Below are positions 4,381 to 50,003 of a DNA stretch of 64,000 bases, in pieces. Each line of letters starts with the position of its first letter. Position 1 is the stretch's first letter. The notes beneath the pieces were generated by a model, which was not told the origin of the DNA, searched no databases, and saw only the letters and a program-made list of their open reading frames with translations. Origin of the DNA: a virus (Duplodnaviria; Heunggongvirae; Uroviricota; Caudoviricetes); IMG/VR virus record IMGVR_UViG_2802429052_000001, positions 27,845 through 91,844 of that record; one strand, given 5' to 3'. Position numbers and translations under genes: made by a program.

Positions 4381-4402
4381 CACACCACAGGAGAACTCAC
4401 CC

Positions 4403-4708: not shown

Positions 4709-4709
4709 C

Positions 4710-5864: not shown

Positions 5865-5878
5865 AAGGGAAAACCATT

Positions 5879-9070: not shown

Positions 9071-9082
9071 CCGACCGGAAAC

Positions 9083-9117
9083 GGCCCTGCTCAAATCCAC
9101 TGAGCAGGGGCGTTTTT
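9083..9117. terminator. Rho-independent terminator between convergent lysis operon and toxin cassette
   Basis: GC hairpin CCCTGCTCA..TGAGCAGGG followed by TTTTT. Confidence 0.55.
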
Positions 9118-9130
9118 CGCCGTCTATCGG

Positions 9131-11892: not shown

Positions 11893-11902
11893 GGCTGGAG
11901 CC

Positions 11903-12214: not shown

Positions 12215-12330
12215 ACCTGCCCCCTTGCCCGATCTGGTTACGGGGCAGACTACAGGCACAGTAGGAAACCGGTCGTGCAATGCCGATCACCGGGCGGCAA
12301 TCTGTCAACAGCAGCGGGGTTGCCCGGGGC

Positions 12331-12573
12331 TCAGCGCCCGCGGGTCGCCAGCTCAGGGCACTCGCTCATGACCTCTTTGTCCACGACAGCCCTGGCAGCA
12401 TCGTAACTGCTGTAGAGGTGTTGATCTTCTGAGAACGTTAGGGCCACGTCGGTCGGCCCCATGCCGGGGTACTTGCGCAGCGTGTCACACACAATCCCAG
12501 TTAGACGAGGACTGGCGTGCGCAATTGGAGCGCACCCGAGAGTGATCACCGCGGCCAGCACGAGCGCCTTCAT
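12331..12573 (-). CDS. Small secreted protein (signal peptide, Cys pairs)
   Basis: N-terminal signal peptide MKALVLAAVITLGCAPIAHA; ATGA coupled to upstream gene. Confidence 0.45.
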   Translation of the reverse strand: MKALVLAAVITLGCAPIAHASPRLTGIVCDTLRKYPGMGPTDVALTFSEDQHLYSSYDAARAVVDKEVMSECPELATRGR

Positions 12574-12920
12574 TCGATGTGCCCCGGCTCGCCAGGAGGG
12601 ATAGTGTCAGCGGTGACGGTGTAGGTCTCGATCCCGCTCCGCTCGGCGGGGATCACGTCATGCGCCCACTGGGGGCAGCCACCGTAGTAGTAGACGCCGC
12701 CGCAACTGCTGTGGACATATTGCGGGTGCCAGTATCGGCGCGCTCGCTCCCATGATCCGTCCGGGTTGATCGGTCCGTCGCACATCTCGAGAATCTGTGG
12801 ATTGAGGCCGAGTAGCGGCACGCGCGCACAGCCGGGTGGTGGTGGGTCAGCATTGGCCGACGGGCTGAACATCAACGCCGCCGCGCAAATTGCGACCACA
12901 ACCCCCGTGATCTTGTTCAT
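12570..12920 (-). CDS. Secreted Cys-rich protein (116 aa)
   Basis: Signal peptide ending ANADPPPPGC; multiple Cys. Confidence 0.45.
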   Translation of the reverse strand: MNKITGVVVAICAAALMFSPSANADPPPPGCARVPLLGLNPQILEMCDGPINPDGSWERARRYWHPQYVHSSCGGVYYYGGCPQWAHDVIPAERSGIETYTVTADTIPPGEPGHIE

Positions 12921-12943
12921 GCGCGGATCGTACTGCGATTTAC

Positions 12944-13180
12944 TCAGCTTCCGGCCAGGAATGCCACCAGTCGATCTACCTTGTCGATCCCCGCGAAATG
13001 CCGGGGCGCCCTGCGACTATCCTGACCATCGGCCCACAAGATCACGCCGGTGTGCGCGTACATGACGGAAACCCACGACGCGGTGCCGGGGCGGCGGTAG
13101 ACGAGCTCGCCACTGTCGCCTCCCACGGCTACCCAGCCATGCACGCGTGCGGCCCGATCGACGGTCTGCTGTCCAGTCAT
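12944..13180 (-). CDS. Hypothetical protein next to integrase (possible recombination directionality factor)
   Basis: ATGA coupling with integrase stop; small size. Confidence 0.3.
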   Translation of the reverse strand: MTGQQTVDRAARVHGWVAVGGDSGELVYRRPGTASWVSVMYAHTGVILWADGQDSRRAPRHFAGIDKVDRLVAFLAGS

Positions 13181-14091
13181 GTCGATTGCCCTTCTGTTGC
13201 GATCGTCGAACGCCGCCGGGTGGCCTTCTTAATTCGGGGAGCGGCACACAGCCGGGAAGCGAGCGCATCGACGCCAGCAGCCCCGCGTCGCGCGGAATAT
13301 CCGAGGTAAACCATTGTGGTAGAGAGGCTTTGATGGCCGAGGGCTTCCTGTATGTAGCGGATATCCACGCCGGCCTCCAGCAGTGCCGTGGCGAATCTAT
13401 GGCGCAGTGTGTGCAGCGTGTAGGGGAGTTTCAGGTTCGCCAGAAACTCCGAAGACGTAACCGAGACATAGTTCGGAGTGACGGGCCCACCCTCGGGGCG
13501 CCGGAACATTGCGCCCGGCTGGCTCATCTGGTTACTCAGGCGCTCAAGCACAATCGGAGGTACCCGCACAATCCGCTGCTTCCCGCCCTTTCCGTGCACA
13601 GTCAGGAACGCGCCGCCGTCGCCGTCCGGCCGAAAATCGCTGCGCTCCATTGCCGCGATCTCTCCGGCGCGCAAACCGCAGTAGCCGGCCAGGAGTAGCC
13701 ACGCATGCATGTCCGACCCGATAGGCGCGGCCATCAGTGCGAGGTCGAGGTGATCGTCGGGGATCGGCCGGGGCATCCGGCGCTTGATCTTCGGCTGGAC
13801 CAGACGTGCGGATGGGTCCGCGGCGATGAGGTTGGCCCCGTGGGCCCAGCGGTAGAACGCGCAGACGTGGCTAGTGTAGGTCTGAACGCTTGAGGCGCAC
13901 ACCCGTAGGGAGCGCTGCCATGCCTCCAGCTGTTCGGGTGTGGCGTCCATCAATGCGGTGTCGCCCAGCCAGCGGTCGAGACGATCGAGTTGGCCGAGAC
14001 GGTGCTCGATGGTTTTCGGAGTCATGTTGCGGAGCTTTAGATACGCTGTGAATGCACTGAGAGCCGCCCCGGAGCTGTGAAGGTTTTCCAT
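13177..14091 (-). CDS. int: Tyrosine integrase (prophage A)
   Basis: SAM-like N-terminal domain, catalytic HTLRHRFAT (R..HxxR) and terminal Tyr in TTMVYL. Confidence 0.85.
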   Translation of the reverse strand: MENLHSSGAALSAFTAYLKLRNMTPKTIEHRLGQLDRLDRWLGDTALMDATPEQLEAWQRSLRVCASSVQTYTSHVCAFYRWAHGANLIAADPSARLVQPKIKRRMPRPIPDDHLDLALMAAPIGSDMHAWLLLAGYCGLRAGEIAAMERSDFRPDGDGGAFLTVHGKGGKQRIVRVPPIVLERLSNQMSQPGAMFRRPEGGPVTPNYVSVTSSEFLANLKLPYTLHTLRHRFATALLEAGVDIRYIQEALGHQSLSTTMVYLGYSARRGAAGVDALASRLCAAPRIKKATRRRSTIATEGQST

Positions 14092-14099
14092 GCCGAATA

Positions 14100-14330
14100 T
14101 GAATAGCGGCTAGGTGATCTTGATCTGACGGTTGTTGCAGGTCAGATGCTTTTTAGAGCGTAACCCGTGACCCTTTGCCGACCGGCGCAAGCCTGACTTA
14201 CGCGGTTCATACTCACGAGTATGAACCGTATAAGTCCGCGTTCCGGCGCGCCAGCTCAGGTCACGGTTTCCGCTCGGGGAAGCAACTGACCTGCAACAAG
14301 TCCACCCGTTCGGTTTCCTAGCAAAAGGAC
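14100..14330. repeat. Quasi-palindromic junction between divergent integrases (putative att/P-arm region); perfect 10-bp inverted repeat GTTCATACTC-ac-GAGTATGAAC at 14205..14226
   Basis: Arms about 80% identical as inverted copies (TTGTTGCAGGTCAG, CCGTGACC, CCGGCGC blocks). Confidence 0.55.
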
Positions 14331-14341
14331 GGGCTGTACTT

Positions 14342-15232
14342 ATGTCACCTGTGAATAATGACACCGTCGTCTCAGAGTTTGCTCGTTATCTGAAGCTGAA
14401 GAACTTCACAGCTAAAACGATCGAGCACCGCTTGGGGCAGATTGCTAGATTAGCTAGATGGCTTGGGGAAACATCTTTGCTGGAGGCCACCCCAGAGCAG
14501 CTTGAGGCCTGGCAAGGTTCGTTGCGGGTGTGCCCGTCTAGCATCCAGACCTACACGTCGCATGTTTGCACCTTCTATCAGTGGGCCTACCGCTGTGGTC
14601 GCACTAGCGAATACGTCGCAAAAGACTTGGTGCAACCGAAGATTCAGCGCCGCATGGCCCGGCCCATCCCCGAGGACCACTTGCGGATCGCGCTGACCGG
14701 CGCGCCTGTCGGGACTGACATCCATGCATGGCTGCTATTGGCCGGATACTGCGGTCTGCGCGCTGGGGAGATCGCGCAGATGTCACGCAACGACTTTCGC
14801 CCCGACGAAGGCGGCGGTGCCTTCCTGACCGTGCACGGCAAGGGAGGGAAGCAACGCATCGTCCGAGTTGCCCCCGAGGTCATGCAACGTCTGGCAATCC
14901 AGCTGAGCCGACCCGGCACCATGTTCTGCCGTCCCCGCGGCGGGCCAGTAACACCCAACTACGTCTCGGTCGTGGGTGCGGAATTCCTAACCAATCTCGG
15001 GCTCCCGTACACGCTGCACACCCTGCGACACAGGTTCGCGACCGTGCTCGCCGACGAAGGCGCGGACCTTCGCGATATCCAGGAATTGATGGGGCACGAG
15101 AGCCTGGCCACCACCATGCGGTATCTCGCCTACTCAACCCGACGTGGAGCGGCGTCCGTCGACTCGCTCGCGTCGCACCTGTGCCCCTCGCGGTCGTCGG
15201 CATCAAGAATGGAACAGCGCAGTCACAAGTAG
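14342..15232 (+). CDS. int: Tyrosine integrase (prophage B), about 70% identical to integrase A
   Basis: Same SAM-like N-terminus and HTLRHRFAT...Y catalytic motifs. Confidence 0.85.
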   Translation: MSPVNNDTVVSEFARYLKLKNFTAKTIEHRLGQIARLARWLGETSLLEATPEQLEAWQGSLRVCPSSIQTYTSHVCTFYQWAYRCGRTSEYVAKDLVQPKIQRRMARPIPEDHLRIALTGAPVGTDIHAWLLLAGYCGLRAGEIAQMSRNDFRPDEGGGAFLTVHGKGGKQRIVRVAPEVMQRLAIQLSRPGTMFCRPRGGPVTPNYVSVVGAEFLTNLGLPYTLHTLRHRFATVLADEGADLRDIQELMGHESLATTMRYLAYSTRRGAASVDSLASHLCPSRSSASRMEQRSHK

Positions 15233-15313
15233 GTGTCACATCTAGGAGGTCGGCCAGCGGACACGAGGGGATGCCCATATGGTCTCCGAATGCCCGCTCG
15301 CCGGTCCCCCTGG

Positions 15314-15595
15314 ATGAACGAACGCGCCCAGTTGCTCGTGCGCTATCTCGCCGAGCAGCACGCCCTGAACATGACCGAGGCCATGGCGCGAGAGCGTATT
15401 TCGGCGAAAGTCGACCTCACGGCCGAGCTGATGGGCATCAGCCGGCAGTCGGCCAAGGCCTACGTCGATGAGGACTACGTGCGCCGGATGGCCGACAGCT
15501 TCGCGGCAGCGGTCCGAGACCTACAAGCTCGGTCACCGCGCCGTGGACTGAGGGCGGTGCCCGACCAGTCTGGCATGGCGACGGAATGGCAATAA
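15314..15595 (+). CDS. Hypothetical HTH-like protein downstream of integrase (possible excisionase/regulator)
   Basis: ORF immediately after int; ISRQSAKAYV helix-turn-helix-like segment; start uncertain (15233, 15290 or 15314). Confidence 0.3.
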   Translation: MNERAQLLVRYLAEQHALNMTEAMARERISAKVDLTAELMGISRQSAKAYVDEDYVRRMADSFAAAVRDLQARSPRRGLRAVPDQSGMATEWQ

Positions 15596-15686
15596 CCCTG
15601 CGAACGCCGTCGAAACGTGCTGTTCGGATGGGTATCGCTTCGCACTCCTATTGCGGTGGCAAACTGGGCGGCGATACCATCCGGCA

Positions 15687-15998
15687 ATGAGTGGAGGGGT
15701 CCTCGGGGTTTCGCCAGAAGAGTTGCAGCGGGTTTCGCGATTGGTCACCGCGACCGCAGGCGGTTTGGCGACTGAGCTGGACGCCCTCGACGCCGAGGTG
15801 TCGCGATTTGTCGGCTCCGGTTGGTCTGGTGGGTCGGCGAGCGCGTTCACCGCGCGGTGGTTCCAGTGGTACGAGGGCGCCAAGCTGGTGCACCAGGGCC
15901 TTGCGCAGATGGGCAGCTTGTTGGCGAGCACCGGGGAGGCGTTCGTGGGCCAGGATGCGGCCACCGCCGCCAACGTCAACGCCGCTGGCGGAATGTAG
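15687..15998 (+). CDS. WXG100 family protein (Esx-like), first of pair
   Basis: About 100 aa helical hairpin with WSGGS W-x-G motif. Confidence 0.65.
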   Translation: MSGGVLGVSPEELQRVSRLVTATAGGLATELDALDAEVSRFVGSGWSGGSASAFTARWFQWYEGAKLVHQGLAQMGSLLASTGEAFVGQDAATAANVNAAGGM

Positions 15999-16007
15999 GG
16001 GGAGGGG

Positions 16008-16298
16008 ATGTCAGGTGAATTCGGCGTTGTGCCCGACGAGCTCATGCGGATCATCGAGCGCATGGCAGAGGTTGAGCAGCGAGCCGAGGCGTCGATAGCG
16101 GCCATGGACACCGAGGTGCACAACCTGCACGCCACCTTCACAGGTGAAGCTGCCACGGCCCACACGCAGGCGCACGAGAAGTGGGCCAAGGGCGCCGAGC
16201 AGATGCGCGAAGCACTCAGGGGCCTACGTGGCGCGAGCCACGCGGCGCACGGCAATTACACGGGCGCCGCTGCCAAGAACATGCAGAACTGGGCATAG
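16008..16298 (+). CDS. WXG100 family protein (Esx-like), second of pair
   Basis: 96 aa, HEKWAKGAEQ central motif, tandem with upstream WXG100 gene. Confidence 0.6.
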   Translation: MSGEFGVVPDELMRIIERMAEVEQRAEASIAAMDTEVHNLHATFTGEAATAHTQAHEKWAKGAEQMREALRGLRGASHAAHGNYTGAAAKNMQNWA

Positions 16299-16302
16299 CG
16301 CG

Positions 16303-17952
16303 ATGGCACCCCCGATTCATGTCGACCCGGTTGCCCTCGATGGCGCCGGTAGAACGGTCTCCAGCTCGGTGGGCGGGTGGGGCTCTGCGCTGTCGGCATT
16401 GCAGTCGGCGCTGTCGAGTTCGGCCGGTATGGGTGGGGATGACCCCGCCGGGATCGTGTTCGCGCGATCGTATGACTCGTCAGCCAAGGAACTCCTTGAG
16501 GCGATGGTGGACGTGTCCAACGGTGCGGGGCGGGCCGCTGACGGCATCCGGGCCTCGGCGACCAACTATTCGCGTGCCGAGGTGGCGTCCAACATCGACG
16601 GCAAGGGTGGCGACCCACTGCCCGCCGCCTCACCCACTCCCTCGGTGAAGGCCGGGACCCCGCCGTCTGCGGTGGGTAGCGATGTTGGCGACCCACCCGG
16701 TTGGTTTCTGGTGGAGCCGTTCATCGGAATGATTTGGCCAAACGGCGATTCGGCGAAGCTGCGCGCCGCTGGCACCGCGTGGACCGCTGCCGGTGCGGCA
16801 TTCACCGCTCAGCAGGCCGGGCTGGCGGGGGCGCAGGCAACCGCGCAGGCCCAGCAGATACCCGAAGGCCCCAAGATCGATAGCGCGTTCAAGACGATTG
16901 ACGGTGCTGTCGGCGAGGTCGGCGGCATGTGCAGCACCATGGGCGCCAAGCTCAACGACTACGCGGCCAAGATCGATACGGCGCATGCGTCGATACTGGA
17001 TCTGTTGGCCCGCTTGGTAAATCCGCTGACCGGTGCCAAACAGGTCGTGGACTGGATTACCGGCGAAGACGACGACGAAATAAAGAAAATCGCCACCGAC
17101 ATCCGCAACATCGTCAACCAGTTCAAGTCGGAAGTGCAGTCGCTCGCGCTGCTGCTGGCACCGATCATCCAGGGCGCATCGATGGTCATCGACACCCTAA
17201 AGTCGTTGGTACAGATGCAAGTTGAGCTTTTCGGCAACGAGATATACAACACCGTGGCCCCGCTAGTGAACGCCACTGCATCCTTTGGGCAGGCCATGAT
17301 CGACAACCCCGGCCAGACAATCCAGATGGCAGCTGGAGTCGGCATGATGGCGGTCGGCTACGACATGATGGCTGCGGCGGGCGTCGGTGAGGTCTTTACC
17401 GGTGGGGCTGCCACGCCGGTCGCTGCGCCCGTCGCTGTTGCCGGTGCTGGCCTGCTCGCTGGTGGCGCGGTCGTCGCCATACCGCCAGCCCTCGACCTCT
17501 CGAAAGAGGCTGCGGTCAACGGTGTGACGGTGATGGAGGCCCGGACTGGACGACCCGGCGAGGGCATCAACCGTGGCGACGACCGCGATTCCATCGGCAC
17601 GTTCACAGGCCGAGGCGGCACGGCGCGGGGATACGGCCGCCAACCAGAGGCGGAGGGTGTCGCCAAGTACAAAGACGAGACCGGGCGTTGGGTGAGCACC
17701 GAGACGAAAAAGTCGAGAGTGGACGGCGTTGACCATGGCCGCTACTACGACGGGCATGCCCGTAAGCCGGACGGTACGTACGAGGGTATCGAGGTGAAGT
17801 CGGGGGGTGCATCGAGGGACGGCCAGCAGAGGGCATTCGATGATGCTGTGTCGTATGAGAATCCGGCCTATGTGACGATCACCAATGAACAAGGCGTCGT
17901 GGAAACAGTGAAGATCACCTCGGTGAGAGTTGTGGAGGTTCCTGCAGAATGA
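16303..17952 (+). CDS. Polymorphic toxin (about 549 aa): helical N-terminal secretion domain, Ala/Gly-rich middle, C-terminal toxin domain (nuclease-like, unassigned)
   Basis: ATG right after WXG100 stop; long ORF; C-terminal about 130 aa module (DHGRYYDGHARKPDGTYEGIEVKSGG) distinct from toxin A. Confidence 0.65.
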   Translation: MAPPIHVDPVALDGAGRTVSSSVGGWGSALSALQSALSSSAGMGGDDPAGIVFARSYDSSAKELLEAMVDVSNGAGRAADGIRASATNYSRAEVASNIDGKGGDPLPAASPTPSVKAGTPPSAVGSDVGDPPGWFLVEPFIGMIWPNGDSAKLRAAGTAWTAAGAAFTAQQAGLAGAQATAQAQQIPEGPKIDSAFKTIDGAVGEVGGMCSTMGAKLNDYAAKIDTAHASILDLLARLVNPLTGAKQVVDWITGEDDDEIKKIATDIRNIVNQFKSEVQSLALLLAPIIQGASMVIDTLKSLVQMQVELFGNEIYNTVAPLVNATASFGQAMIDNPGQTIQMAAGVGMMAVGYDMMAAAGVGEVFTGGAATPVAAPVAVAGAGLLAGGAVVAIPPALDLSKEAAVNGVTVMEARTGRPGEGINRGDDRDSIGTFTGRGGTARGYGRQPEAEGVAKYKDETGRWVSTETKKSRVDGVDHGRYYDGHARKPDGTYEGIEVKSGGASRDGQQRAFDDAVSYENPAYVTITNEQGVVETVKITSVRVVEVPAE

Positions 17953-18419
17953 GGATTGACAAGCCAACCCACATCGCAGAATCAAACCTGGCCAAAATGC
18001 GTACCAGTGACTTTACGGAAGAAATACCAGGCCAGCTCGCAGCGGGGATAAATCGTTTAGGCACAAAGGGATACACGTACTACTCAATCTACCCGGTTGC
18101 GCCAGAGGTCCGATACGATGAGTTCCCATACTCGCCTGAGCGCATCCAAGCCTGTGGTAGGGATGGCAGGCTCACGGTCGAGATTAAACGGCTTGAGGCT
18201 GATGGTGTGCGGCGCCATTACACCATCGGAAGACCTTCTGCAGCAAACGAATCCGAGACCGAAGTGGTCTACAACGGCGATAGCGCTTACCCGGTACGCC
18301 CATCAGAGGTATTGACACCAACCGAGGCCATCAGACTATTCCTGGGCTACTACGACACAGGCGACGTTGCGCCAGGCTGGCACCTGCGCGAGCAACCCGA
18401 ATTCGCCGACGCCGGGTAG
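17949..18419 (+). CDS. Putative immunity protein for toxin 16303..17952
   Basis: ATGA overlap with toxin stop; 156 aa cytoplasmic protein. Confidence 0.5.
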   Translation: MRIDKPTHIAESNLAKMRTSDFTEEIPGQLAAGINRLGTKGYTYYSIYPVAPEVRYDEFPYSPERIQACGRDGRLTVEIKRLEADGVRRHYTIGRPSAANESETEVVYNGDSAYPVRPSEVLTPTEAIRLFLGYYDTGDVAPGWHLREQPEFADAG

Positions 18420-18493
18420 GGTGCATGTCCACCGCTGTGTGGGCACTCCTGTTACCACTTCTGACCTGTGCGTGATCTTGTAATCTGCCGTCC

Positions 18494-18922
18494 ATGGCGA
18501 GAGAGATGGGCACCCCGGCGAAAGCGTTGTGGGTGTGTCTGGGGGTATTTGTCGGGCTGCTGGCGTTCATGGCGGCGTGCGCAATAGGGCTGTCGGGCCA
18601 ATCCGGAAACGTTGGTGTGAGCGTTGAAGTGAGGCAAAAGTACGCGATCGAGACATGCCAGTCTGCTCTCATGAAGCGTATGCGTGACCCTGAGAGTGCG
18701 AAGTTCGCCGATGAGGTGGCCCGTGAAGGTGTGGCGCATGGAGGTGGGCGTGATCCCGAGTTGGACTACTCGCCCGACCGCGGTGATATCTACTTTACGG
18801 TGACGGGCAATGTCAACGCCAAGAACGCGTTTGGTGGTTACACGGGGATGCGTCCCTACACCTGCGATGCGGTGGTGGACAGAAACGGCACAACGCAAAG
18901 CCGGGCCCGCGTGCTGGATTAG
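18494..18922 (+). CDS. Lipoprotein/secreted protein (142 aa)
   Basis: N-terminal TM/signal with lipobox-like MAACA; last gene before terminator. Confidence 0.45.
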   Translation: MAREMGTPAKALWVCLGVFVGLLAFMAACAIGLSGQSGNVGVSVEVRQKYAIETCQSALMKRMRDPESAKFADEVAREGVAHGGGRDPELDYSPDRGDIYFTVTGNVNAKNAFGGYTGMRPYTCDAVVDRNGTTQSRARVLD

Positions 18923-23894: not shown

Positions 23895-26341
23895 CAGACC
23901 GCCTTGATCGCGGCGTACCCCGCGGCACCCCAGCCGCCGGTACCGGCGCTGCCCCCGGTACCACCGCCGCCGCCCGCGCCGCCGCCACCGGGCCCGTTGC
24001 CCGGGGCTCCGTTGGCCGCACCCACCGACGCGCTGGGCGGGGTGTTCTGCCCGCCCTTGAACAGGCGCGCGGAGAACCCAAGATCGCCGGGGCCGTAGCC
24101 CACCGAGTCGCGGTTGTAGAAGCTGCCATAGGCCAGGCGCCCCAGTCGGCCACCAGCGCAACGCAGGATCTCGCTGTTGTCGCTGCCGTTGCGGAACACG
24201 ATGTCGTGCCCCGGCTTGCCGTCGGTCTCCTTGCTGCCGGGCTCGCCGCCAATACCCGTGGGTGAACCCACACGCTCGGACTGCACCGTGATCTGAGTGA
24301 CGGACCCCGGGATGTCGACGCCGCGCTCCAGCCGTAGCGAGTTCCAGGAACCGCCGCCCCCACCCTCGCCGGGCTTGTTCCAGCCGCCGTCACCGCCGCC
24401 GCCCCCACCACCGCCACCGCAGCCCGCCAGGTACAGCACGGTGCTGGCGCTGGGGATGTCGTAGACGGACAGGGGCAGGTTCGCCCCGGTGGATGAGTAC
24501 TCGGTCCATTGATCTGCCAAGTTGGTCGACTCGCCCAGGGCGCCCCATACCGGCGTGAATTCCACGTGCCCGCCCACCAGGGTGGGCAGGGAGGTGTAGC
24601 CGGTGCCGCCGTCCTGGGTGAAGAACAGGGGGATGTTCTGCACGACTTCCAGCACGGTCGGCATGGCCGGTGTGGTGTAGAGGCCCTGCGGGTTGCCGAC
24701 CTGCAGCACACCGATGAACGCGGTATGACCCTTGGGCACCGTCAATCCCGGCGACGGAATTGTCAGAGCTTGCACGCGGCTGGTACCCGATAGCCGTGCC
24801 TTGACGTTCCCGAGGTCGACGGCCTTCTGAATTTGCAGCGACTCATTGATCCGGTACACGCCCACGTAGCACTGCGTCATGCCATTGCCGGTGATGGCGA
24901 ATTTCACGGTGCGATACGTGCGCTCAACACCCGGCGTGATGGGGATGAACACCAGCTTTTGATCGGCCGGTACGAATGTCGACTGTGCATTGATGATGGG
25001 GAACGACACATCGTCGTTGATGCCTGTGGACATCCAGCGAGGGGTCAGTCGTGGCAGATTCACAACATCGGTGGCGTACACCGCGGCCGCGTACGCGTCA
25101 TCGGCCTTCTTCTTGAGGGCAGCGGTCGCAGTGGATACATCGACAGGACCCCTGCCACTAGATCCGTCCCCAAATACCGCATTCCAGAAGTTGTTCCACG
25201 TGTCCTTGAGGTCTTCTCCGATGTCGGTGCTGCCGATCGGGCTGTGCACCTTGGCCGGGGGCAGCTTCGGGATATTGCCCAACCCGAGTAGCCCGATGAT
25301 TTCCTCGGCGGTGATCTTGCCGTCGGCGGTGATCGCGGCGAATCGCTGCTCGAAATCGGCGATGTCCGAATTGGCTTTGCCGCCCAGGGTGTCAAAGAAC
25401 GATCTCCACTTGCCGAGCAGCGGCCCGAGGTTCGACATGACCGAGGTGACGTTGGAGAAGTGGATGCGGCCGGCGGTGGCGCCCTCGGTCACAACCAGGG
25501 TCACTGTCGCGGACTTGACCGATCCGTCGGTCGGCACCGTCCACGAGCCGGTCAGGCTGGCACGTATCCAGGACGAATCGGCGGCCACGGGCTGAATTTT
25601 CTTGATGACGATATCGGGGAGCTTGGTGCCATCGGGGGCAAACGGGGTGATGCACAACCGGATCGGATTGGAACCCGCTGCAGCCGAGACGCCTTGCCAC
25701 ATCGCCGATGCGGCGATGTCCACCGCCTGGCCGGCAGCCACGTTGAACGGGTCTTTGATGCTGATCGCATGCAGCTGGCCATCGGCGTTGAGGTAGATCG
25801 ACTTACCCGACAGGTGCCCGTTCTGGGCGGCATCAAATCGCCAGTACGGGTTGTCCTCGACCATCTTCGGGTCGGTGAATCCGCCAGCACCGCCCAGTAG
25901 GTCATGGGCCACATCAGCCACCCACGACGCCGGTATGACGCCCTTGAAGAACTGGCCCGCCACCTTGGCGATAGCAGTCAGGATCGATTCAGGATGAGCC
26001 AGATCGATGCCAGCCAGGGCGTTGCGGATACCGAGGGCCCATGTCCCTAAATCATTTTCATCGCCGTCCTCGATCCCGGTCAGCAGCTCGACCAGATCGC
26101 CGAGACCAGGTTTGTCTTTGGCCCACTCGCGCAGCTGATCAAACGAACCCACGCCGGGAATGAGGTGCCCCATGACCGCGAGCACCACGCGACCGAGAAA
26201 CTGCTCAATGAACCCCTTGCCGAACTCCTGGAGCTGTTGGGCTGTGAACGGCCGCGTGAGACCGCCGCCCTGCTCGCGGTGCACCGGGGCCGAGGGGACA
26301 TCCCTTGCCCAATCGGGGATCTCGGGCAGGTTGTCGGTCAC
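23894..26341 (-). CDS. Large minor tail protein (about 815 aa) with poly-Gly segment, paralog of A 1696..4380
   Basis: High identity block (NGHLSGKSIY..GKITA) to the A protein; GTG start overlapping upstream stop. Confidence 0.75.
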   Translation of the reverse strand: MTDNLPEIPDWARDVPSAPVHREQGGGLTRPFTAQQLQEFGKGFIEQFLGRVVLAVMGHLIPGVGSFDQLREWAKDKPGLGDLVELLTGIEDGDENDLGTWALGIRNALAGIDLAHPESILTAIAKVAGQFFKGVIPASWVADVAHDLLGGAGGFTDPKMVEDNPYWRFDAAQNGHLSGKSIYLNADGQLHAISIKDPFNVAAGQAVDIAASAMWQGVSAAAGSNPIRLCITPFAPDGTKLPDIVIKKIQPVAADSSWIRASLTGSWTVPTDGSVKSATVTLVVTEGATAGRIHFSNVTSVMSNLGPLLGKWRSFFDTLGGKANSDIADFEQRFAAITADGKITAEEIIGLLGLGNIPKLPPAKVHSPIGSTDIGEDLKDTWNNFWNAVFGDGSSGRGPVDVSTATAALKKKADDAYAAAVYATDVVNLPRLTPRWMSTGINDDVSFPIINAQSTFVPADQKLVFIPITPGVERTYRTVKFAITGNGMTQCYVGVYRINESLQIQKAVDLGNVKARLSGTSRVQALTIPSPGLTVPKGHTAFIGVLQVGNPQGLYTTPAMPTVLEVVQNIPLFFTQDGGTGYTSLPTLVGGHVEFTPVWGALGESTNLADQWTEYSSTGANLPLSVYDIPSASTVLYLAGCGGGGGGGGGDGGWNKPGEGGGGGSWNSLRLERGVDIPGSVTQITVQSERVGSPTGIGGEPGSKETDGKPGHDIVFRNGSDNSEILRCAGGRLGRLAYGSFYNRDSVGYGPGDLGFSARLFKGGQNTPPSASVGAANGAPGNGPGGGGAGGGGGTGGSAGTGGWGAAGYAAIKAV

Positions 26342-45884: not shown

Positions 45885-46282
45885 TGGGCTAGGAACTTTC
45901 GTAGTTGACGGGCATCGATCGTCACGTCGTCGGTCTTGCCGACCGTCAGCACCAACAAGGGCGTGGCGCGCTGGTGGTCGGTGCGGTCATACAGCGTGAC
46001 GATTCGGGTGCCATCCGGCGCTTCTGCGGCATCCTGGCGCAGCTGTGCCGCATCGGCTTTCGTCAGTACGTCGAATTCGCCATCGATGACCGACCCAAGG
46101 GCCTCGGCCCACAGCTTTGCGGCCTGGCCGATCATTTCCTGCGCTTGAGCCTCTGGCATGCCAGTGGAGCGGAAGCCGGGAATCGGAATCACTCGTGCGG
46201 GACTGTTTGCGTCGCCGGGATGTTGAAGGGCTCCCGAAGCGAATGTGCGGGTGAGCAGATCCACCAAGAGCTGATTGGCCAT
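45881..46282 (-). CDS. Hypothetical protein
   Basis: ORF in coupled gene chain. Confidence 0.4.
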   Translation of the reverse strand: MANQLLVDLLTRTFASGALQHPGDANSPARVIPIPGFRSTGMPEAQAQEMIGQAAKLWAEALGSVIDGEFDVLTKADAAQLRQDAAEAPDGTRIVTLYDRTDHQRATPLLVLTVGKTDDVTIDARQLRKFLAQ

Positions 46283-46443
46283 CAGGGGAACGGGTTTCCA
46301 GGTGCTTGCATGTGTTGCCTGAACGCGTCGCCAGCGCTTCGCCCGGCCGCGGCATGTGCATATTCGACGTTGACGGTCCAGCCGCGCGACGGGTCGAGAC
46401 GATTCGCAAGCCTGCGCAGCGCGCGGGCAATGGTGCGCTTCAT
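46283..46443 (-). CDS. Small basic protein (about 54 aa) not in ORF track
   Basis: GAGGGGG RBS 4 nt before ATG; first ORF after terminator. Confidence 0.35.
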
Positions 46444-46502
46444 GAGTCCCCCTCGGGCTAAGGGATGAGGTTGGGCGGAATGGACATCGCCCCTGAAACG
46501 AC

Positions 46503-46530
46503 GAAAACCCCAGCTAGGCCGGGGTTTTCA
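46503..46530. terminator. Bidirectional terminator separating early and late operons
   Basis: AAAACCCC..GGGGTTTT hairpin with flanking A/T runs. Confidence 0.5.
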
Positions 46531-46588
46531 TGCAGTGGACATAGTTGTCCCACCGACATGTTGGGACTCATTTTGCCATACGTGCAGG

Positions 46589-47014
46589 TCAGGCCTGCGA
46601 TATGGGTTTTCGCGTGTCGCGACGCCACAGGGTATGCGCGGCCATGAGTGCTGAGGCCAATGCTGGCGCGTCCTGCATGGACAGTTTGTCGGGCACGTTG
46701 CGGATGGCCACCTGGTCGCCGTGCGGGCTGATGCGAACGGCGCCGTCAGACCATGGTTGTGCGGTGATGGGTACACGGACGTATTGCCGGCCGGACTCGT
46801 AGGTTTCGACCCCGGGTAGTGCGATCACCACATGCCCCTTGGTCTTGAGGGCGTCGGGCAGTATCGAGGCGATGATGTCGGCGACCTGCGCCTGCGTGTA
46901 AAGAACGGTCTCGGTCTGACCTTCGGCACCGATGGTCACACCTCGGGTTATCCCGAACAGGTTCGGGATGCTCTCGATGACCTCACGAATGGCCTTACGG
47001 GCGTCCATGGGCAA
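46589..47014 (-). CDS. Hypothetical protein
   Basis: 141 aa ORF, last gene before terminator. Confidence 0.4.
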   Translation of the reverse strand: MPMDARKAIREVIESIPNLFGITRGVTIGAEGQTETVLYTQAQVADIIASILPDALKTKGHVVIALPGVETYESGRQYVRVPITAQPWSDGAVRISPHGDQVAIRNVPDKLSMQDAPALASALMAAHTLWRRDTRKPISQA

Positions 47015-47043
47015 GTTCTACGCCGAGGGTCTGACAGCGCTGG

Positions 47044-47556
47044 TCAGGCGTGGCTGAAATTTCCCAGGATTGCCCGAGCATCCTTCATGAGCAGGAAGAG
47101 GTGAAGCGGATCGGTGGGGGAGGGTTCGAAATCAAACCGCTCGTAGAAGGTGCGAGCCTCTTCGTGCAGGGCGTGGACCAGCAGGATTTTCACGCCGACT
47201 TGTTCGGATACCTGCACAGTGCGCAGGATGGCATCGCGCAGCAATGAACCGCCCAACCCCATGCCCTGCGTCTTCCGGTCGACAGCCAAGCGCGCCAACA
47301 GAATTGCAGGGATTGGGTCAGGCATGTTTCGCCGCACCCTCCCTGGCATATCAGAACGGAGAACAGCCGTAGACGACAGCGAGTAGTAACCCATTACGCG
47401 GCCGTCCTTGCATGTGACAAAGCATCGCGAACCGTCACCTACATGGTTGGCCAATGCCCGGTTGTGCAGGTACTCGTCGAGACTGGGGGCACCACTCTCG
47501 AAACCGCTGATGTCATCGCGCTCGGTGATGGCCCGGGGGCGGCTGTACTCACTCAT
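47044..47556 (-). CDS. GNAT acetyltransferase toxin (TacT-like)
   Basis: Acetyl-CoA motif QGMGLGGSLL; overlaps upstream antitoxin stop. Confidence 0.65.
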   Translation of the reverse strand: MSEYSRPRAITERDDISGFESGAPSLDEYLHNRALANHVGDGSRCFVTCKDGRVMGYYSLSSTAVLRSDMPGRVRRNMPDPIPAILLARLAVDRKTQGMGLGGSLLRDAILRTVQVSEQVGVKILLVHALHEEARTFYERFDFEPSPTDPLHLFLLMKDARAILGNFSHA

Positions 47557-47818
47557 CGAAAACAGATGGGCTGGTCAGCAGCTTCTCCAACCGTGCCTTG
47601 AACTGCACAGGGCGATCAAGGATTGCGTTGAACTCTGCCCATGCGGCGTTGTCAATGATGAACAGCCGCCTGTCGGCGAGAACGTCGCGTGCGTGAGACA
47701 AGGTGGCACTGAGTGTGAACTCGCTCAAGGTAGCCCCCTCGACCTCAGCGGCACGACGAATCAGTGCGTCCTGCTCTGATGTCAGGCGCACAGCCAGTCG
47801 CTGCTCCTTGGTACTCAT
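47549..47818 (-). CDS. DUF1778/TacA-like antitoxin (about 89 aa)
   Basis: Ribbon-helix-helix-like N-terminus, 8-nt overlap with GNAT gene. Confidence 0.6.
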   Translation of the reverse strand: MSTKEQRLAVRLTSEQDALIRRAAEVEGATLSEFTLSATLSHARDVLADRRLFIIDNAAWAEFNAILDRPVQFKARLEKLLTSPSVFDE

Positions 47819-47825
47819 GCATACA

Positions 47826-47868
47826 TTGTGTGCCCGGTGTACGCACAAGTCAACAGTCAATGTCAATA
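47826..47868. promoter_or_regulatory. Putative TA operator: inverted repeat TTGTGTGC..GCACAAG and three GTCAA direct repeats
   Basis: Directly upstream of antitoxin start in 255-bp divergent intergenic region. Confidence 0.35.
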
Positions 47869-48120
47869 GATGCCCTAAAGCTGCAGGTCAATCGGCATGT
47901 TCTAAGGCGTGATGTTTACCACGGCACCCTTCGCGAAACTACGCGCCATCACTTCGCAGAGCTATCCCTCGGAGTTAAAGACTGTCGAGCGGTATCCCCG
48001 TGGTGAGTGAAATTTCGGCGTGTCGCGTCGGCGCACTGTCTACGCGGCTACGTGTCTGCCATGGTTGCTACGTTAAGCCGAATGGACAAACTCTATGTGA
48101 GTCGCAAGTAAGGGGCGGAA

Positions 48121-48771
48121 ATGACTGTAGCTGCAGATGAAAATGAAGAAGGCAGGGCGAACACTGCTGGAATTAGGATGCTCGCCATTATGGGTGCAGT
48201 AATCGTACTGTTCGCACTGTCGCGTTTCGTCGATGGGTCTCGAATTGCTCGTTTCAAGCAATTTCATCCCACTTCGTTCTCTTGGACTGTGGCCGTGGTT
48301 GGGGCAAACGTAGCGGTGGTGCTGCTTGCAGCAGTAGTTTTGTGGGAATGCCCACCTCGACCCCTAATACCAGACAATCGACTCACGGTTCGACTTAAGC
48401 AGATCGCGAAATTCTTGGTTGGTGTGACAACATTTGGGCTTGCGGCCTTTTGGGGTGCGCTGGCTGGTGCCATGATGCCCTCGCGTGAAGATAAGTTCAC
48501 GACCGACGATATGAATCACCTTTTAGGGCAAGTTGTAGGTGAACCTTTGAAGTTCACGACCTTACTCGCGGCGGTAGGAATGATCCTGGCCCTTTGTCTA
48601 GATCTATATGTGGTCGGTCGAGATCGTCGAGAATCCGCATTTCGCGGGCTTCGACCTAGCCTGGCTTGGCTTTGCACATTCCTGACCGCACCATGGGTGA
48701 TCGGAACTGCCTCGTACCTGTCCTTGGGCATGGTTCTCTGGTGTGTCACGCTTCCGGTGCCACAGCCCTAA
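48121..48771 (+). CDS. Multi-pass membrane protein (216 aa), divergent from TA module
   Basis: 4-5 predicted TM helices; AAGGGG RBS. Confidence 0.5.
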   Translation: MTVAADENEEGRANTAGIRMLAIMGAVIVLFALSRFVDGSRIARFKQFHPTSFSWTVAVVGANVAVVLLAAVVLWECPPRPLIPDNRLTVRLKQIAKFLVGVTTFGLAAFWGALAGAMMPSREDKFTTDDMNHLLGQVVGEPLKFTTLLAAVGMILALCLDLYVVGRDRRESAFRGLRPSLAWLCTFLTAPWVIGTASYLSLGMVLWCVTLPVPQP

Positions 48772-48794
48772 CTGCAATCCCGTGTGTGCATCAT

Positions 48795-50003
48795 TCAGCC
48801 ATGTGACCTCGCATTCCGGGGGCGCTCCGCTCGCACCGCGCGCACATCGCCGATGCGCACCATCTGGTGCCCCTGGGCGTCCCGGCCACGCACCGGCACC
48901 CACCCGCGTCTAATCCACCGCTCGATGGTCGATTGTGGCACGTGTTCGTCGAGGCGGGGTAGTACCACGTCGACCAGCTCGCGCACCGTGACATTGCGGT
49001 CGTCCAGACCCGCCAGGTTGTACTCCAGCACCTCGGCGGCCACATACACCAGCCCGCATTGTGGGCATTCGACATCGATGTTGGGCGGGCGCACGGTGAG
49101 CGCATAGCCACAGACGGTGTCGGTGTCCCCCCTCTCGGCGCGGGCTTTGAGCACCTCATCGGGAGCGGGGTCGGTGACACACGGGCCGATGGTCATGGGC
49201 TCGGGTGGGCGGTTCACCACGCGCGTGATTGACCGGTACACCTGCTCGATCTCGTCGCAGATCTCGGCGCCGTTCTCCTGCAGCGCGATATTGGCCGCGT
49301 GCCGGTGCAGCCACTTGGCCATGCGCGCTGTCGTCGCGACTGAGTGCGTGTCGTCGCCGCGCCTTCCGGCGTAGGTCACGCGTAGGTCATCCGCGGGGGA
49401 GTCGTCGGCCGTGCGCGTCTCCGGGGCGCCGTCGCAGTCGTCGCACAGCGGTCCGGCGGACGAGGCGGGCAGTGTGACGAAGCACCGTCGACACGAGCCC
49501 GCCCGGGCCGGCGGCGCCGAATCGAGGCTGAACCGATCTGCCGGCCGCCGTGCACCCGATTCGACGACCACCGGCAGAGGCCTTGGCCGGGTGCGGAACT
49601 CGGGCACCTCCAGCCCGCGCGTCTCGCACATGTCGCGGATGGTCGTAGAGAGCGCGTTGCGTATCCGGTCCAGCTCGTCGCTTGCGCGTCCGTTGACCCG
49701 GCCGAGTGCCAGGGCATGCCACAGTGCCGCCTGGTGTCGGTCTCGGTGGTCCCTGGCGGTCGGGGTGGTGTCCTTGTCGCGCGGGAACGGTTCGACGTGG
49801 CTCACGAGCGCGTCGTCACCGTGTAGCACGTCGCGGCGCTCGCCCTTGCGTGCTCCGTCGCCCAGGTTCGCCTGCCCGACAGCGGTCTCGGTGAGTCGGT
49901 CGATCCACCACGGCAGATCAGCCAGGCGCTTGCGCAGCTCCGCGATGCAGGCCTTGCACACGAACAGATCGGTTGCGCGTTCGCACCGCTTGCACTTGGT
50001 CAA
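48795..50003 (-). CDS. Cys-rich zinc-ribbon protein (402 aa)
   Basis: CxxC pairs at both ends. Confidence 0.4.
   Translation of the reverse strand: MTKCKRCERATDLFVCKACIAELRKRLADLPWWIDRLTETAVGQANLGDGARKGERRDVLHGDDALVSHVEPFPRDKDTTPTARDHRDRHQAALWHALALGRVNGRASDELDRIRNALSTTIRDMCETRGLEVPEFRTRPRPLPVVVESGARRPADRFSLDSAPPARAGSCRRCFVTLPASSAGPLCDDCDGAPETRTADDSPADDLRVTYAGRRGDDTHSVATTARMAKWLHRHAANIALQENGAEICDEIEQVYRSITRVVNRPPEPMTIGPCVTDPAPDEVLKARAERGDTDTVCGYALTVRPPNIDVECPQCGLVYVAAEVLEYNLAGLDDRNVTVRELVDVVLPRLDEHVPQSTIERWIRRGWVPVRGRDAQGHQMVRIGDVRAVRAERPRNARSHG

What the first reader, a model, noticed from the sequence alone, without database searches (positions are those of the whole stretch)
47044..48771. 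GNAT/DUF1778 toxin-antitoxin pair plus divergent multi-TM protein inserted between early and late operons (candidate prophage defence island)
The minus-strand pair is a TacA-like antitoxin (about 89 aa) overlapping a GNAT acetyltransferase toxin (acetyl-CoA motif QGMGLGGSLL). Across a 255-bp divergent promoter region on the plus strand sits a 216-aa protein with 4 to 5 TM helices. It is the only plus-strand gene in 45 kb of minus-strand phage genes.

This is classic moron placement. Mycobacteriophage prophages are known to express toxin-plus-membrane-protein pairs that exclude heterotypic phages. Membrane proteins are not a known component of GNAT-RHH toxin-antitoxin systems, so this pairing may be unusual.
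Basis: partly seen in the sequence, partly recalled or inferred. Interest (0 to 1): 0.65.

Follow-up and report, generated by a model that had tools for sequence, protein, structure and literature searches.

The report
Prophage TacAT toxin-antitoxin beside unrelated membrane gene
A Mycobacterium abscessus prophage carries an ordinary two-gene GNAT/TacA toxin-antitoxin cassette next to a rare membrane-protein gene, but comparison with relatives shows the two are separate, independently mobile passengers in a hypervariable slot, not a new three-part system.

Summary
The three ORFs exist exactly as described. The window is M. abscessus GD52 prophage prophiGD52-1 (MW584208, cluster MabC), 100% identical. 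Genes 32/34 are a canonical DUF1778(TacA)/GNAT(TacT) type II toxin-antitoxin pair: Pfam TacA1 E=1e-22, E=2e-41 to solved Salmonella-type GNAT toxins, catalytic Tyr138 and the acetyl-CoA motif intact, an 8-bp gene overlap, and a promoter/operator layout shared with homologues that are only 68-70% identical. Public protein databases already name the pair; the phage record calls them hypothetical.

Gene 31 is a real membrane protein with about 5 TM helices, from a tiny orphan family of six clusters among 1.84 billion representatives.

The proposed TA-membrane link fails the comparative test:
- Nine MabC-like loci carry the membrane gene in the same slot without the TA pair, as do three other contexts.
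- None of 38 viral contigs and none of five further loci (one chromosomal) with related TA pairs carries it.
- Composition (GC3 0.50 vs 0.68-0.70) and divergence profiles also differ.

The gp30-gp35 slot is hypervariable; a sister prophage carries BrnTA there. TA modules among the early lytic genes of M. abscessus prophages were described by Dedrick et al. 2021. A defence role is plausible but untested.

Verdict: new member of a known kind, with low-to-moderate interest.

The parts
47044..47556 (-). tacT-like GNAT toxin gene (prophiGD52-1 gene 34, 170 aa)
   Evidence: Pfam Acetyltransf_7/1/10 hits are above threshold, and PHROG 1758 acetyltransferase scores 6e-31. phmmer against PDB gives 7ak7_A at 1.7e-41 and TacT 5fvj_A at 2e-35, with weaker hits to AtaT/KacT chains. 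Tyr138 aligns with the TacT Y140F position, and the acetyl-CoA motif QGMGLG lies at 97-102. Against the L006 copy there are 35 synonymous and 10 amino-acid codon differences, indicating purifying selection.
47549..47818 (-). tacA-like DUF1778/RHH antitoxin gene (gene 32, 89 aa), overlapping tacT by 8 bp (ATGAGTGA)
   Evidence: Pfam TacA1 scores E=1.2e-22 over residues 7-81. PDB DUF1778 antitoxin chains 7f37_C, 7zg6_A, 7ak7_C, 6ajm_C and KacA 5zgn_A match. UniRef names it 'type II toxin-antitoxin system TacA family antitoxin'. Against L006 there are 10 synonymous and 1 amino-acid codon differences.
47825..47853 (-). Putative tacAT promoter: -35 TTGACT (47853-47848), 17-nt spacer, -10 CACAAT (47830-47825). 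The ATG lies 7 nt after the -10, which implies a leaderless mRNA. An operator-like half-site ATTGTGTGCC (plus strand 47825-47834) and a degenerate partner GCACAAG (47843-47849) overlap the promoter.
   Evidence: This is the only sigma-70-like hit in 46400-49000, though the count equals the shuffle expectation. The support is comparative. GGCACACAAT followed by 6-7 nt and then ATG is conserved upstream of tacA homologues that are only 68-70% identical (L015, L016, L017). In L016 it forms a perfect palindrome, ATTGTGTGCCT-GAT-AGGCACACAAT. Function is inferred, not shown.
47050..47950 (.). About 0.9-kb TA cassette: a block of high nucleotide identity to the second lineage that carries it (L006)
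   Evidence: In 100-nt windows, identity is 86-98% inside this block. It is 65-77% in gp35, 64-92% in the membrane gene and 53-84% in gp30. An indel-rich edge lies at 47000-47050.
47819..48120 (.). 302-bp divergent intergenic region
   Evidence: Read directly from the sequence; GC is 0.536. No Rfam family matches. The half nearest tacA is almost identical to L006, and the middle part diverges.
48066..48074 (+). Candidate extended -10 (TGcTACGTT) for the membrane-protein gene, with a Shine-Dalgarno-like AAGGGG at 48110-48115
   Evidence: TTGCTACGTT is conserved upstream of the gene in the window, in L006 and in the TA-less L007. An in-frame stop at 48109-48111 fixes the ATG at 48121 as the first possible start. 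The promoter function is inferred.
48121..48771 (+). Orphan membrane protein with about 5 TM helices (gene 31, 216 aa); an independent moron, function unknown
   Evidence: Five hydrophobic peaks. No hit reaches significance in Pfam, NCBIfam, PHROGs or PADLOC. Only 4 clusters appear among 5.8 billion proteins and 6 among 1.84 billion representatives by profile search. An invariant loop plus TM3 motif, CPPRPLIPDNRLT.R.KQ..KFLVG.TTFGLAAFWGALAG, is present. GC3 is 0.50, against 0.75-0.83 for phage backbone genes. The AlphaFold2 model is all-helical but low confidence, pLDDT 49.
46589..47014 (-). gp35, the phage backbone gene that forms the left edge of the variable slot
   Evidence: Homologues are present in relatives whose slot content differs: GD13-2 95%, L007 and L021-28 84%, L006 67%, prophi104-2 41%.
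48795..50003 (-). gp30 ('helix-turn-helix DNA binding domain protein', 402 aa), the right edge of the variable slot; convergent with the membrane gene across a 23-bp gap
   Evidence: Annotated in MW584208. It is 84-89% identical in MabC relatives regardless of slot content.

Best explanation
Two unrelated accessory modules lie side by side in a hypervariable slot between backbone genes gp30 and gp35 of the MabC-cluster M. abscessus prophage prophiGD52-1.

Module 1 (about 47044-47950, minus strand) is a self-contained, canonical type II GNAT/DUF1778 (TacAT-type) toxin-antitoxin cassette.
- Shown: the family assignment, intact catalytic Tyr138 and acetyl-CoA motif, the 8-bp overlap of the two genes, purifying selection, and a promoter/operator layout shared with distant homologues.
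- Inferred from the characterised family (TacT, AtaT, KacT, ItaT): tacA-tacT is transcribed as a leaderless bicistronic mRNA from its own promoter.
- Inferred: the TacA RHH dimer represses that promoter through the ATTGTGTGCC-type inverted repeat, and its C-terminal part blocks TacT.
- Inferred: when TacA is lost, TacT uses acetyl-CoA to acetylate the alpha-amino group of aminoacyl-tRNA and stops translation.
- The biological payoff is most likely abortive-infection defence against other phages, stabilisation of the prophage, or both. This is untested.

Module 2 (48066-48771, plus strand) is an independently transcribed membrane protein with about 5 TM helices, from a tiny orphan family found mostly in Mycobacteroides prophages. 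It is probably a lysogen-expressed envelope function such as superinfection exclusion. Its function is unknown, and it is not a component of the TA system.
For: Identity of the element:
- The region is 100% identical to MW584208, which is cluster MabC integrated at attB-13.

TA family membership:
- TacT Y140 and A93 are required for toxicity (PMC4942678).
- GNAT plus adjacent DUF1778 defines the 'true TA clade' (PMC9177977).
- The promoter/operator is conserved in homologues that are 68-70% identical.

Separability of the two modules:
- The membrane gene occurs without the TA pair in the same slot in L007 and L021-L028.
- It also occurs without it in L008, L014 and L020.
- TA homologues occur without the membrane gene in M. 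boenickei chromosomal DNA (L015) and next to an MmeI-like RM gene (L016-19).
- Of 38 IMG/VR contigs with GNAT relatives, 37 have TacA, none has the membrane gene, and only 1 has any ORF with 3 or more TM segments within 1.5 kb.

Different histories:
- Identity to L006 is TacA 99% and TacT 94%, against membrane protein 80%, gp30 71% and gp35 67%.
- The nucleotide identity block covers 47050-47950.
- Third-codon-position identity is 0.89 (tacA) and 0.78 (tacT), against 0.65 for the membrane gene.
- GC3 is 0.68 (tacA) and 0.70 (tacT), against 0.50 for the membrane gene.

Variable slot:
- prophi104-2 carries BrnT plus antitoxin there.
- GD13-2 carries two unrelated genes there.
- GD51-1 carries small ORFs.

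Precedent:
- M. abscessus prophages carry at least 9 TA types, mostly among early lytic genes.
- MabA1 TA pairs are strongly transcribed in lysogens (PMC8092301).
Against: - No expression, toxicity or defence data exist for this locus.
- The promoter hit alone is no more than chance would give.
- I found no paper showing phage defence by a GNAT/DUF1778 pair, so the defence role rests on analogy.
- The TA pair and the membrane gene are adjacent and divergent in two lineages, the window type and L006. Independent juxtaposition explains this, but it could also reflect a local functional link.
- The mosaic boundary on the membrane-gene side is gradual rather than sharp.
- The difference in third-position divergence between tacT (0.78) and the membrane gene (0.65) is moderate.
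- The membrane protein's function is a guess; no homology or confident structure supports it.
Confidence: 0.78

Rival explanations
1. One reading: the membrane protein and TacAT form one three-gene defence system. For example, the membrane protein could sense incoming phage or act as a second effector, sharing a divergent regulatory region with the TA pair.
For: The three genes are adjacent and divergent in the window lineage (24 contigs read) and in a second lineage, L006, where the flanking phage genes are only 67-71% identical. Both modules have lower GC than the phage backbone. Mycobacteriophage defence systems that include a membrane protein do exist: Sbash gp30/31.
Against: - The membrane gene sits in the same slot without the TA pair in nine MabC-like loci, and without it in three other contexts.
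- Related TA pairs never have it, and almost never have any membrane neighbour: 0 of 38 and 1 of 38.
- The two modules differ in composition and divergence.
- Each has its own conserved proximal promoter-like element, and the one upstream of the membrane gene is conserved in a TA-less relative.
Confidence: 0.06
2. The TacAT cassette is a selfish addiction or persistence module with no anti-phage role. It stabilises the prophage or its own slot, or modulates host growth and antibiotic tolerance, and the 'defence island' label is wrong.
For: - The characterised relatives TacT, AtaT, KacT and ItaT are linked to persistence, growth arrest and translation inhibition, not phage defence.
- There is no PADLOC model hit.
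- No paper was found showing GNAT-TA phage defence.
- Close homologues sit among ordinary metabolic genes in M. boenickei.
Against: - A sister prophage carries a different TA system (BrnTA) in the same slot.
- One homologue group lies beside an MmeI-like restriction-modification gene.
- Related pairs are frequent in viral contigs.
- Prophage TA pairs are lysogenically expressed in M. abscessus and are proposed to defend (PMC8092301).
- All of these are circumstantial.
Confidence: 0.3
3. The GNAT protein is an ordinary acetyltransferase (for example a RimI-like or drug-modifying enzyme) and the upstream small ORF is merely a regulator, so this is not a toxin-antitoxin pair.
For: Generic GNAT Pfam families match, and there are weak NCBIfam hits to rimI and MshD, far below their cut-offs.
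Against: - The best PDB matches are all TA toxins, at E=1e-41 to 1e-15 over the full length.
- The partner is a DUF1778/TacA1 protein.
- 37 of 38 related viral loci keep the same pair.
- The genes overlap by 8 bp.
Confidence: 0.02

Closest known systems
Salmonella TacAT (TacA/TacT, including the TacAT2/3 paralogues), and E. coli AtaRT, ItaRT and Klebsiella KacAT: GNAT/DUF1778 type II toxin-antitoxin systems
   Same: - Antitoxin-first bicistronic layout with overlapping genes.
- A DUF1778/RHH antitoxin of 89 aa.
- A GNAT toxin of about 170 aa with the acetyl-CoA motif and the catalytic Tyr.
- 47% identity to Salmonella GNAT TA toxins.
- An inverted-repeat operator overlapping the promoter, as expected for autoregulated type II TA operons (KacAT regulation, PMC6698736 abstract).
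   Different: - It is carried by an actinobacterial prophage.
- The transcript is probably leaderless.
- The aminoacyl-tRNA target is unknown.
- Toxicity has not been tested.
TA modules embedded in the early lytic genes of M. abscessus prophages (Dedrick et al. 2021, mBio, PMC8092301), for example the BrnT-like toxin and antitoxin of the sister MabC prophage prophi104-2
   Same: It belongs to the same prophage cluster and occupies the same gp30-gp35 slot. It is a small self-contained TA cassette among otherwise silent lytic genes.
   Different: The TA family differs (GNAT/DUF1778 rather than BrnTA). In the GenBank phage record genes 32 and 34 are labelled 'hypothetical protein'. It is unclear whether this pair was counted among the 'at least nine' TA types. 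No RNA-seq exists for GD52.
Sbash gp30/gp31 and CarolAnn gp44/gp43 (RexAB-like prophage defence: cytoplasmic sensor plus 4-TM ion channel)
   Same: It is a prophage-encoded multi-TM protein located beside a cytoplasmic, potentially toxic function in a mycobacteriophage.
   Different: There is no sequence similarity. No DUF4747 partner is present. The genes are divergent rather than co-directional, and the pairing is not conserved. The Sbash pair is not a toxin-antitoxin system.

Membership tests
GNAT/DUF1778 (TacAT/AtaRT/KacAT-type) type II toxin-antitoxin | The toxin is a GNAT-fold acetyltransferase with the acetyl-CoA binding motif (Q/R-x-x-G-x-G/A) | tested here: met
   Pfam Acetyltransf_7, _1 and _10 are above their gathering scores. 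QGMGLG lies at residues 97-102.
GNAT/DUF1778 (TacAT/AtaRT/KacAT-type) type II toxin-antitoxin | The toxin is closer to characterised TA toxins than to other GNATs | tested here: met
   15 of the 16 PDB sequence hits (E=1.7e-41 to 7.8e-15) are the GNAT-toxin entries: 7ak7, 7f36, 5fvj TacT, 7ak8, 6g96, the 6ajm/6ajn/6gt* group, and 5zgn/5xun KacT. The sixteenth, 7byy_A, is a marginal hit at E=0.0064 that I did not identify. No phylogeny was built.
GNAT/DUF1778 (TacAT/AtaRT/KacAT-type) type II toxin-antitoxin | The catalytic tyrosine (TacT Y140) and the A93-region acetyl-CoA pocket are conserved | tested here: met
   Tyr138 aligns with the Phe of the Y140F crystal construct 5fvj. The LARLAVD segment is conserved. 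The residues' roles come from PMC4942678.
GNAT/DUF1778 (TacAT/AtaRT/KacAT-type) type II toxin-antitoxin | A DUF1778/RHH antitoxin gene lies immediately upstream on the same strand | tested here: met
   Pfam TacA1 scores E=1.2e-22. The genes overlap by 8 bp. 37 of 38 related viral loci have the same pair.
GNAT/DUF1778 (TacAT/AtaRT/KacAT-type) type II toxin-antitoxin | An autoregulated promoter with an operator bound by the antitoxin | tested here: inconclusive
   A promoter-like site and an inverted-repeat half-site are conserved across homologues of 68-70% identity. In the window the second half-site is degenerate, and binding has not been tested.
GNAT/DUF1778 (TacAT/AtaRT/KacAT-type) type II toxin-antitoxin | The toxin arrests growth by acetylating aminoacyl-tRNA, and the antitoxin neutralises it | not testable with these tools
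   This needs expression in mycobacteria and LC/MS of acetyl-aminoacyl-tRNA.
Prophage-mediated heterotypic phage defence system (in the sense of Dedrick 2017 and Gentile 2019) | Expressed from the prophage in the lysogen | not testable with these tools
   No RNA-seq exists for GD52. There is only analogy to MabA1 TA pairs (PMC8092301) and the presence of own promoter-like elements.
Prophage-mediated heterotypic phage defence system (in the sense of Dedrick 2017 and Gentile 2019) | Reduces plating of unrelated phages | not testable with these tools
   This is experimental. PADLOC-DB has no matching model for any of the three proteins.
RexAB-like sensor plus membrane channel pair (Sbash gp30/31) | A DUF4747 cytoplasmic partner co-transcribed with a 4-TM protein | tested here: not met
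   No DUF4747 hit was found. The genes are divergent, not co-directional. The features of the Sbash system come from PMC6426596.
Hypothetical three-component TacAT plus membrane protein system | Conserved co-occurrence of the membrane gene with the TA pair | tested here: not met
   - Contexts of the membrane gene: 2 lineages have the TA pair (window type, L006); 4 do not (the L007/L021-28 type, L008, L014, L020).
- Contexts of the TA pair: 0 of 38 viral loci and 0 of 5 other loci have the membrane gene.

The most novel reading that the evidence does not exclude
The adjacency seen in two lineages could be functional. Under this reading the orphan ~5-TM protein is a membrane-level sensor or second effector that cooperates with TacAT, making a three-gene abortive-infection module and the first membrane-coupled GNAT/RHH system. 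A weaker but likelier novelty is that gene 31 founds a new family of prophage superinfection-exclusion proteins centred on Mycobacteroides. Another is that this would be the first GNAT/DUF1778 pair shown to defend against phage.
Probability: 0.06. Interest if true: 0.6.

Novelty: new member of a known kind. Interest (0 to 1): 0.22.

Why it matters
M. abscessus is a target for phage therapy, and prophage-borne TA and exclusion genes shape which therapeutic phages can infect a given clinical isolate.

This locus adds a GNAT/DUF1778 pair, unlabelled in the phage record, to the known repertoire of TA cassettes in M. abscessus prophages. It also marks the gp30-gp35 junction of MabC prophages as a cargo hotspot worth mining.

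If TacAT were shown to block heterotypic phages, it would be, as far as my literature searches found, the first defence phenotype for this large TA family.

The membrane protein is a rare orphan with a strikingly invariant loop and TM motif, and it is a reasonable candidate for an exclusion assay. None of this changes current concepts.

Tried and rejected
- **AlphaFold2 on the membrane protein.** Using the 4-sequence alignment gave pLDDT 48.9 and pTM 0.33. I therefore ran no fold search, because the matches would be meaningless.
- **Family libraries for the membrane protein.** Pfam, NCBIfam, PHROGs and PADLOC gave only sub-threshold noise.
- **Phage and plasmid collections for the membrane protein.** tblastn against 50,697 phage records found only prophiGD52-1 itself. 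The plasmid collection gave nothing.
- **Species-representative genomes.** The scan for the membrane family found nothing.
- **TA cassette on plasmids.** A blastn search for a plasmid copy found only remote alpha-proteobacterial GNAT fragments.
- **Rfam.** Nothing in the window reaches a gathering score.
- **Repeats in the intergenic region.** The repeat finder gave only short, chance-level matches. The operator candidate emerged only from comparison with distant homologues.
- **Literature.** A search for 'prophi52-1' found no paper. Searches for GNAT-toxin phage defence found no experimental report.
- **Downstream neighbour of TA homologues.** I considered that the 211-aa gene after the TA homologues in L016-19 might be a membrane partner; it has no TM segment.
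- **ARAGORN tRNA-Ala.** I rejected this call as a false positive.
Full report
**What the window is**

Window 46000-50000 is 100% identical to Mycobacterium phage prophiGD52-1 (MW584208.1, 49,796 bp), a prophage of M. abscessus GD52. Window and record coordinates relate as w = 64000 - r, so the prophage covers about w14204-63999. Dedrick et al. 2021 place it in cluster MabC, integrated at attB-13 (PMC8092301).

**Checking the observation**

- 47044-47556(-), 170 aa, gene 34.
- 47549-47818(-), 89 aa from the ATG, gene 32.
- 48121-48771(+), 216 aa, gene 31.

All three are 'hypothetical protein' in the phage record. The motif QGMGLGGSLL is at residues 97-106. The two minus-strand genes overlap by 8 bp, ATGAGTGA. 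The 216-aa protein has five hydrophobic peaks.

With the 89-aa antitoxin the intergenic gap is 302 bp. That start is unlikely, because homologues are 89-92 aa and the promoter-like site lies between the TTG and the ATG.

In the record's annotation, genes 2-69 (about 44.6 kb) all lie on the window's minus strand except gene 31. So 'the only plus-strand gene in 45 kb' is correct. GC falls to 0.56-0.58 here, against 0.64 for the prophage.

**The toxin-antitoxin pair is genuine and ordinary**

Gene 32 matches Pfam TacA1 (formerly DUF1778) at E=1.2e-22, and gene 34 matches three GNAT families above threshold.

Against PDB sequences, the toxin's best hits are all GNAT TA toxins:
- 7ak7_A at 1.7e-41.
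- 7f36_A at 1.6e-35.
- TacT 5fvj_A at 2e-35.
- The 6g96 and 6ajm/6ajn/6gt* groups and KacT, down to about 1e-15.

The antitoxin hits the cognate DUF1778 chains.

TacT toxicity requires Y140 and the A93 pocket (PMC4942678). In the alignment, Tyr138 of gene 34 sits opposite the Phe of the Y140F crystal construct, and LARLAVD is conserved. GNAT toxins with an adjacent DUF1778 gene form a single 'true TA clade' that acetylates aminoacyl-tRNAs (PMC9177977).

Public protein databases already call these two proteins 'type II toxin-antitoxin system TacA family antitoxin' and 'GNAT family N-acetyltransferase'. The toxin family is very large: 5,251 clusters at E<=1e-30. The nearest non-identical relatives, at about 70% identity, are in Mycolicibacterium and Mycobacterium.

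Between the window and the second lineage, L006, tacT shows 35 synonymous and 10 replacement codon differences. tacA shows 10 and 1. Both genes are therefore under purifying selection.

**Promoter and operator**

The only sigma-70-like hit in 46400-49000 is TTGACT-17-CACAAT at 47853-47825 on the minus strand. It ends 7 nt before the tacA ATG. On its own it is no better than chance.

The support is comparative. The same GGCACACAAT, followed by 6-7 nt and then ATG, lies upstream of tacA homologues that are only 68-70% identical (L015, L016, L017). In L016 it is part of a perfect palindrome, ATTGTGTGCCT-GAT-AGGCACACAAT.

I infer a leaderless transcript and a TacA operator overlapping the -10. In the window the distal half-site is degenerate.

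**The membrane protein is real but an orphan**

It has an in-frame stop 12 nt upstream of the ATG and an AAGGGG Shine-Dalgarno-like element.

Family searches gave the following:
- No significant hit in Pfam, NCBIfam, PHROGs or PADLOC.
- Only four clusters among 5.8 billion proteins, at 100, 80, 71 and 62% identity.
- Six hits in a profile search of 1.84 billion representatives.
- No other phage record and no plasmid.

The loop after TM2 together with TM3 is nearly invariant, and it is recognisable in the remote members. The AlphaFold2 model is helical but unreliable, at pLDDT 49, so I did not search folds.

**Are the two modules linked?**

*Membrane gene without the TA pair:*
- In L007 (an M. 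abscessus genome) and in eight IMG/VR prophage loci, L021-L028, a 72%-identical homologue sits in the same slot.
- That slot is bounded by gp35 (84% identical) and gp30 (85-89% identical) homologues. The loci have no tacA or tacT.
- In those loci it is the seventh gene of an eight-gene reverse-oriented cluster. The cluster includes a lipoprotein-like gene, a Q/P-rich protein with hydrophobic N- and C-terminal segments, and two HTH proteins.
- The 62% homologue (L008) and the 41% homologue (L014) lie in a different phage background, next to a conserved 135-140-aa gene, with no TA pair.
- A remote homologue (L020) sits beside a mycobacterial haemophore-domain gene, with no TA pair.

*TA pair without the membrane gene:*
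- L015 lies among metabolic genes in M. boenickei.
- L016-19 lie beside an MmeI-like RM gene.
- Of 38 IMG/VR contigs with GNAT relatives, 37 have TacA upstream.
- None of the 38 has the membrane gene, and only one has any ORF with 3 or more TM segments within 1.5 kb.

*Different histories in the one other lineage that has both (L006):*
- Protein identity is TacA 99% and TacT 94%, against 80% for the membrane protein and 67-71% for the flanks.
- Nucleotide identity forms a block of 86-98% over 47050-47950, with an indel-rich left edge.
- Third-position identity is 0.89 and 0.78 for the TA genes, against 0.65 for the membrane gene.
- GC3 is 0.68-0.70 for the TA genes, 0.50 for the membrane gene and 0.75-0.83 for backbone genes.

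*Separate promoters:* a TTGCTACGTT element, which fits an extended -10, lies about 50 nt upstream of the membrane gene. It is conserved in the TA-less L007.

**The slot is hypervariable**

Among MabC relatives the gp30-gp35 interval holds different cargo:
- BrnT-like toxin plus antitoxin in prophi104-2.
- Two unrelated genes in GD13-2: a reverse-strand multi-TM protein, and a protein with an N-terminal hydrophobic segment and a GDSGAP motif that I read as a secreted serine protease.
- A string of small ORFs in GD51-1.
- The 4.6-kb reverse cluster in L007.

Most other MabC prophages match the window only from gp30 onward. Apart from a generic HNH domain in a neighbouring GD13-2 gene, this cargo gives no PADLOC hit.

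**Comparison with what is known**

Dedrick et al. 2021 already reported three relevant points:
- Nineteen M. abscessus prophages carry at least nine TA types.
- These are mostly embedded in early lytic genes.
- MabA1 TA pairs are strongly transcribed in lysogens.

The present pair is another instance of this, and it is unlabelled in the phage record.

It is not a TA pair plus a membrane protein, and nothing here resembles it beyond the presence of TM helices.

I found no experimental report of phage defence by a GNAT/DUF1778 pair. The defence role is therefore plausible but rests on analogy.

**Verdict**

The TA pair and the moron placement are right. The 'unusual TA plus membrane protein pairing' is not.
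- The best model is two independent accessory cassettes side by side in a cargo hotspot.
- Novelty: new member of a known kind.
- Interest: about 0.2.

Noticed in passing
window 1-14203: The DNA to the left of prophiGD52-1 is not plain chromosome. It is the right end of a second prophage lying immediately adjacent in the window (a tandem arrangement), with tail genes 96% identical to those of MabN-type prophi62-3. It carries a protein with a PG-binding domain, probably a lysin (6986-8323, +), a 672-aa protein with a Tox-REase-5 polymorphic-toxin domain (9874-11892, -), and its own tyrosine integrase (13177-14091, -).
   Followed up: partly
window 14528-18922 (+ strand; record genes 70-76): prophiGD52-1 carries the ESX-exported polymorphic toxin cassette described by Dedrick 2021: two WXG-motif proteins, a 549-aa polymorphic toxin, an immunity protein, an HTH protein and a tyrosine integrase. 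The immunity repressor gene is split by attP, which indicates integration-dependent immunity.
   Followed up: no
window 25652-25738 (-): ARAGORN calls an 87-nt tRNA-Ala(GGC) inside the minor tail protein gene 60. Rfam finds no tRNA at gathering score, and the published table lists 0 tRNAs for this prophage. It is probably a false positive.
   Followed up: partly
L016-L019 about 3700-3735; L015 about 3700-3735; window 47819-47853: GNAT/TacA homologues of only 68-70% identity share the element GGCACACAAT, followed by 6-7 nt and then ATG. L016 has a perfect 11-bp-arm palindrome there. This suggests a conserved leaderless promoter and operator design for the actinobacterial branch of the family.
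   Followed up: partly
L007 4669-9242 (the same arrangement occurs in L021-L028): In the TA-less MabC relatives the slot holds an eight-gene cluster on the reverse strand. Its products are:
- a 394-aa Q/P-rich protein with hydrophobic N- and C-terminal segments;
- a 145-aa lipoprotein-like protein (LVGC lipobox);
- a 60-aa ORF that I did not examine;
- a cysteine-rich 152-aa protein;
- two paralogous HTH proteins;
- the membrane-protein homologue;
- a 160-aa protein.
No known family or PADLOC hit was found. It may be an envelope-directed lysogenic-conversion cluster.
   Followed up: partly
L003 4905-5297 (prophiGD13-2, MW584212): A 95%-identical gp35 homologue is present on the minus strand but is not annotated. 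The opposite-strand gene overlap it, so the N-terminal part of gene 27 is probably mis-called. The C-terminal half of gene 27 is a multi-TM protein unrelated to window gene 31.
   Followed up: partly
L022 6738-10373: One IMG/VR contig shows four consecutive gp30-like segments, at 78-98% identity to window gp30. This could be tandem duplication, recombination between co-resident MabC prophages, or an assembly artefact.
   Followed up: no
L008 2680-3102 and L014 3215-3622: In a different phage background, the membrane-protein homologues are convergent with a conserved 135-140-aa protein (86% identical between the two loci). That protein has an 'IRDWVRRN' segment that I read, by eye, as resembling the C-terminus of window gp30. 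The membrane gene may therefore travel with, or insert next to, this type of regulator gene.
   Followed up: no
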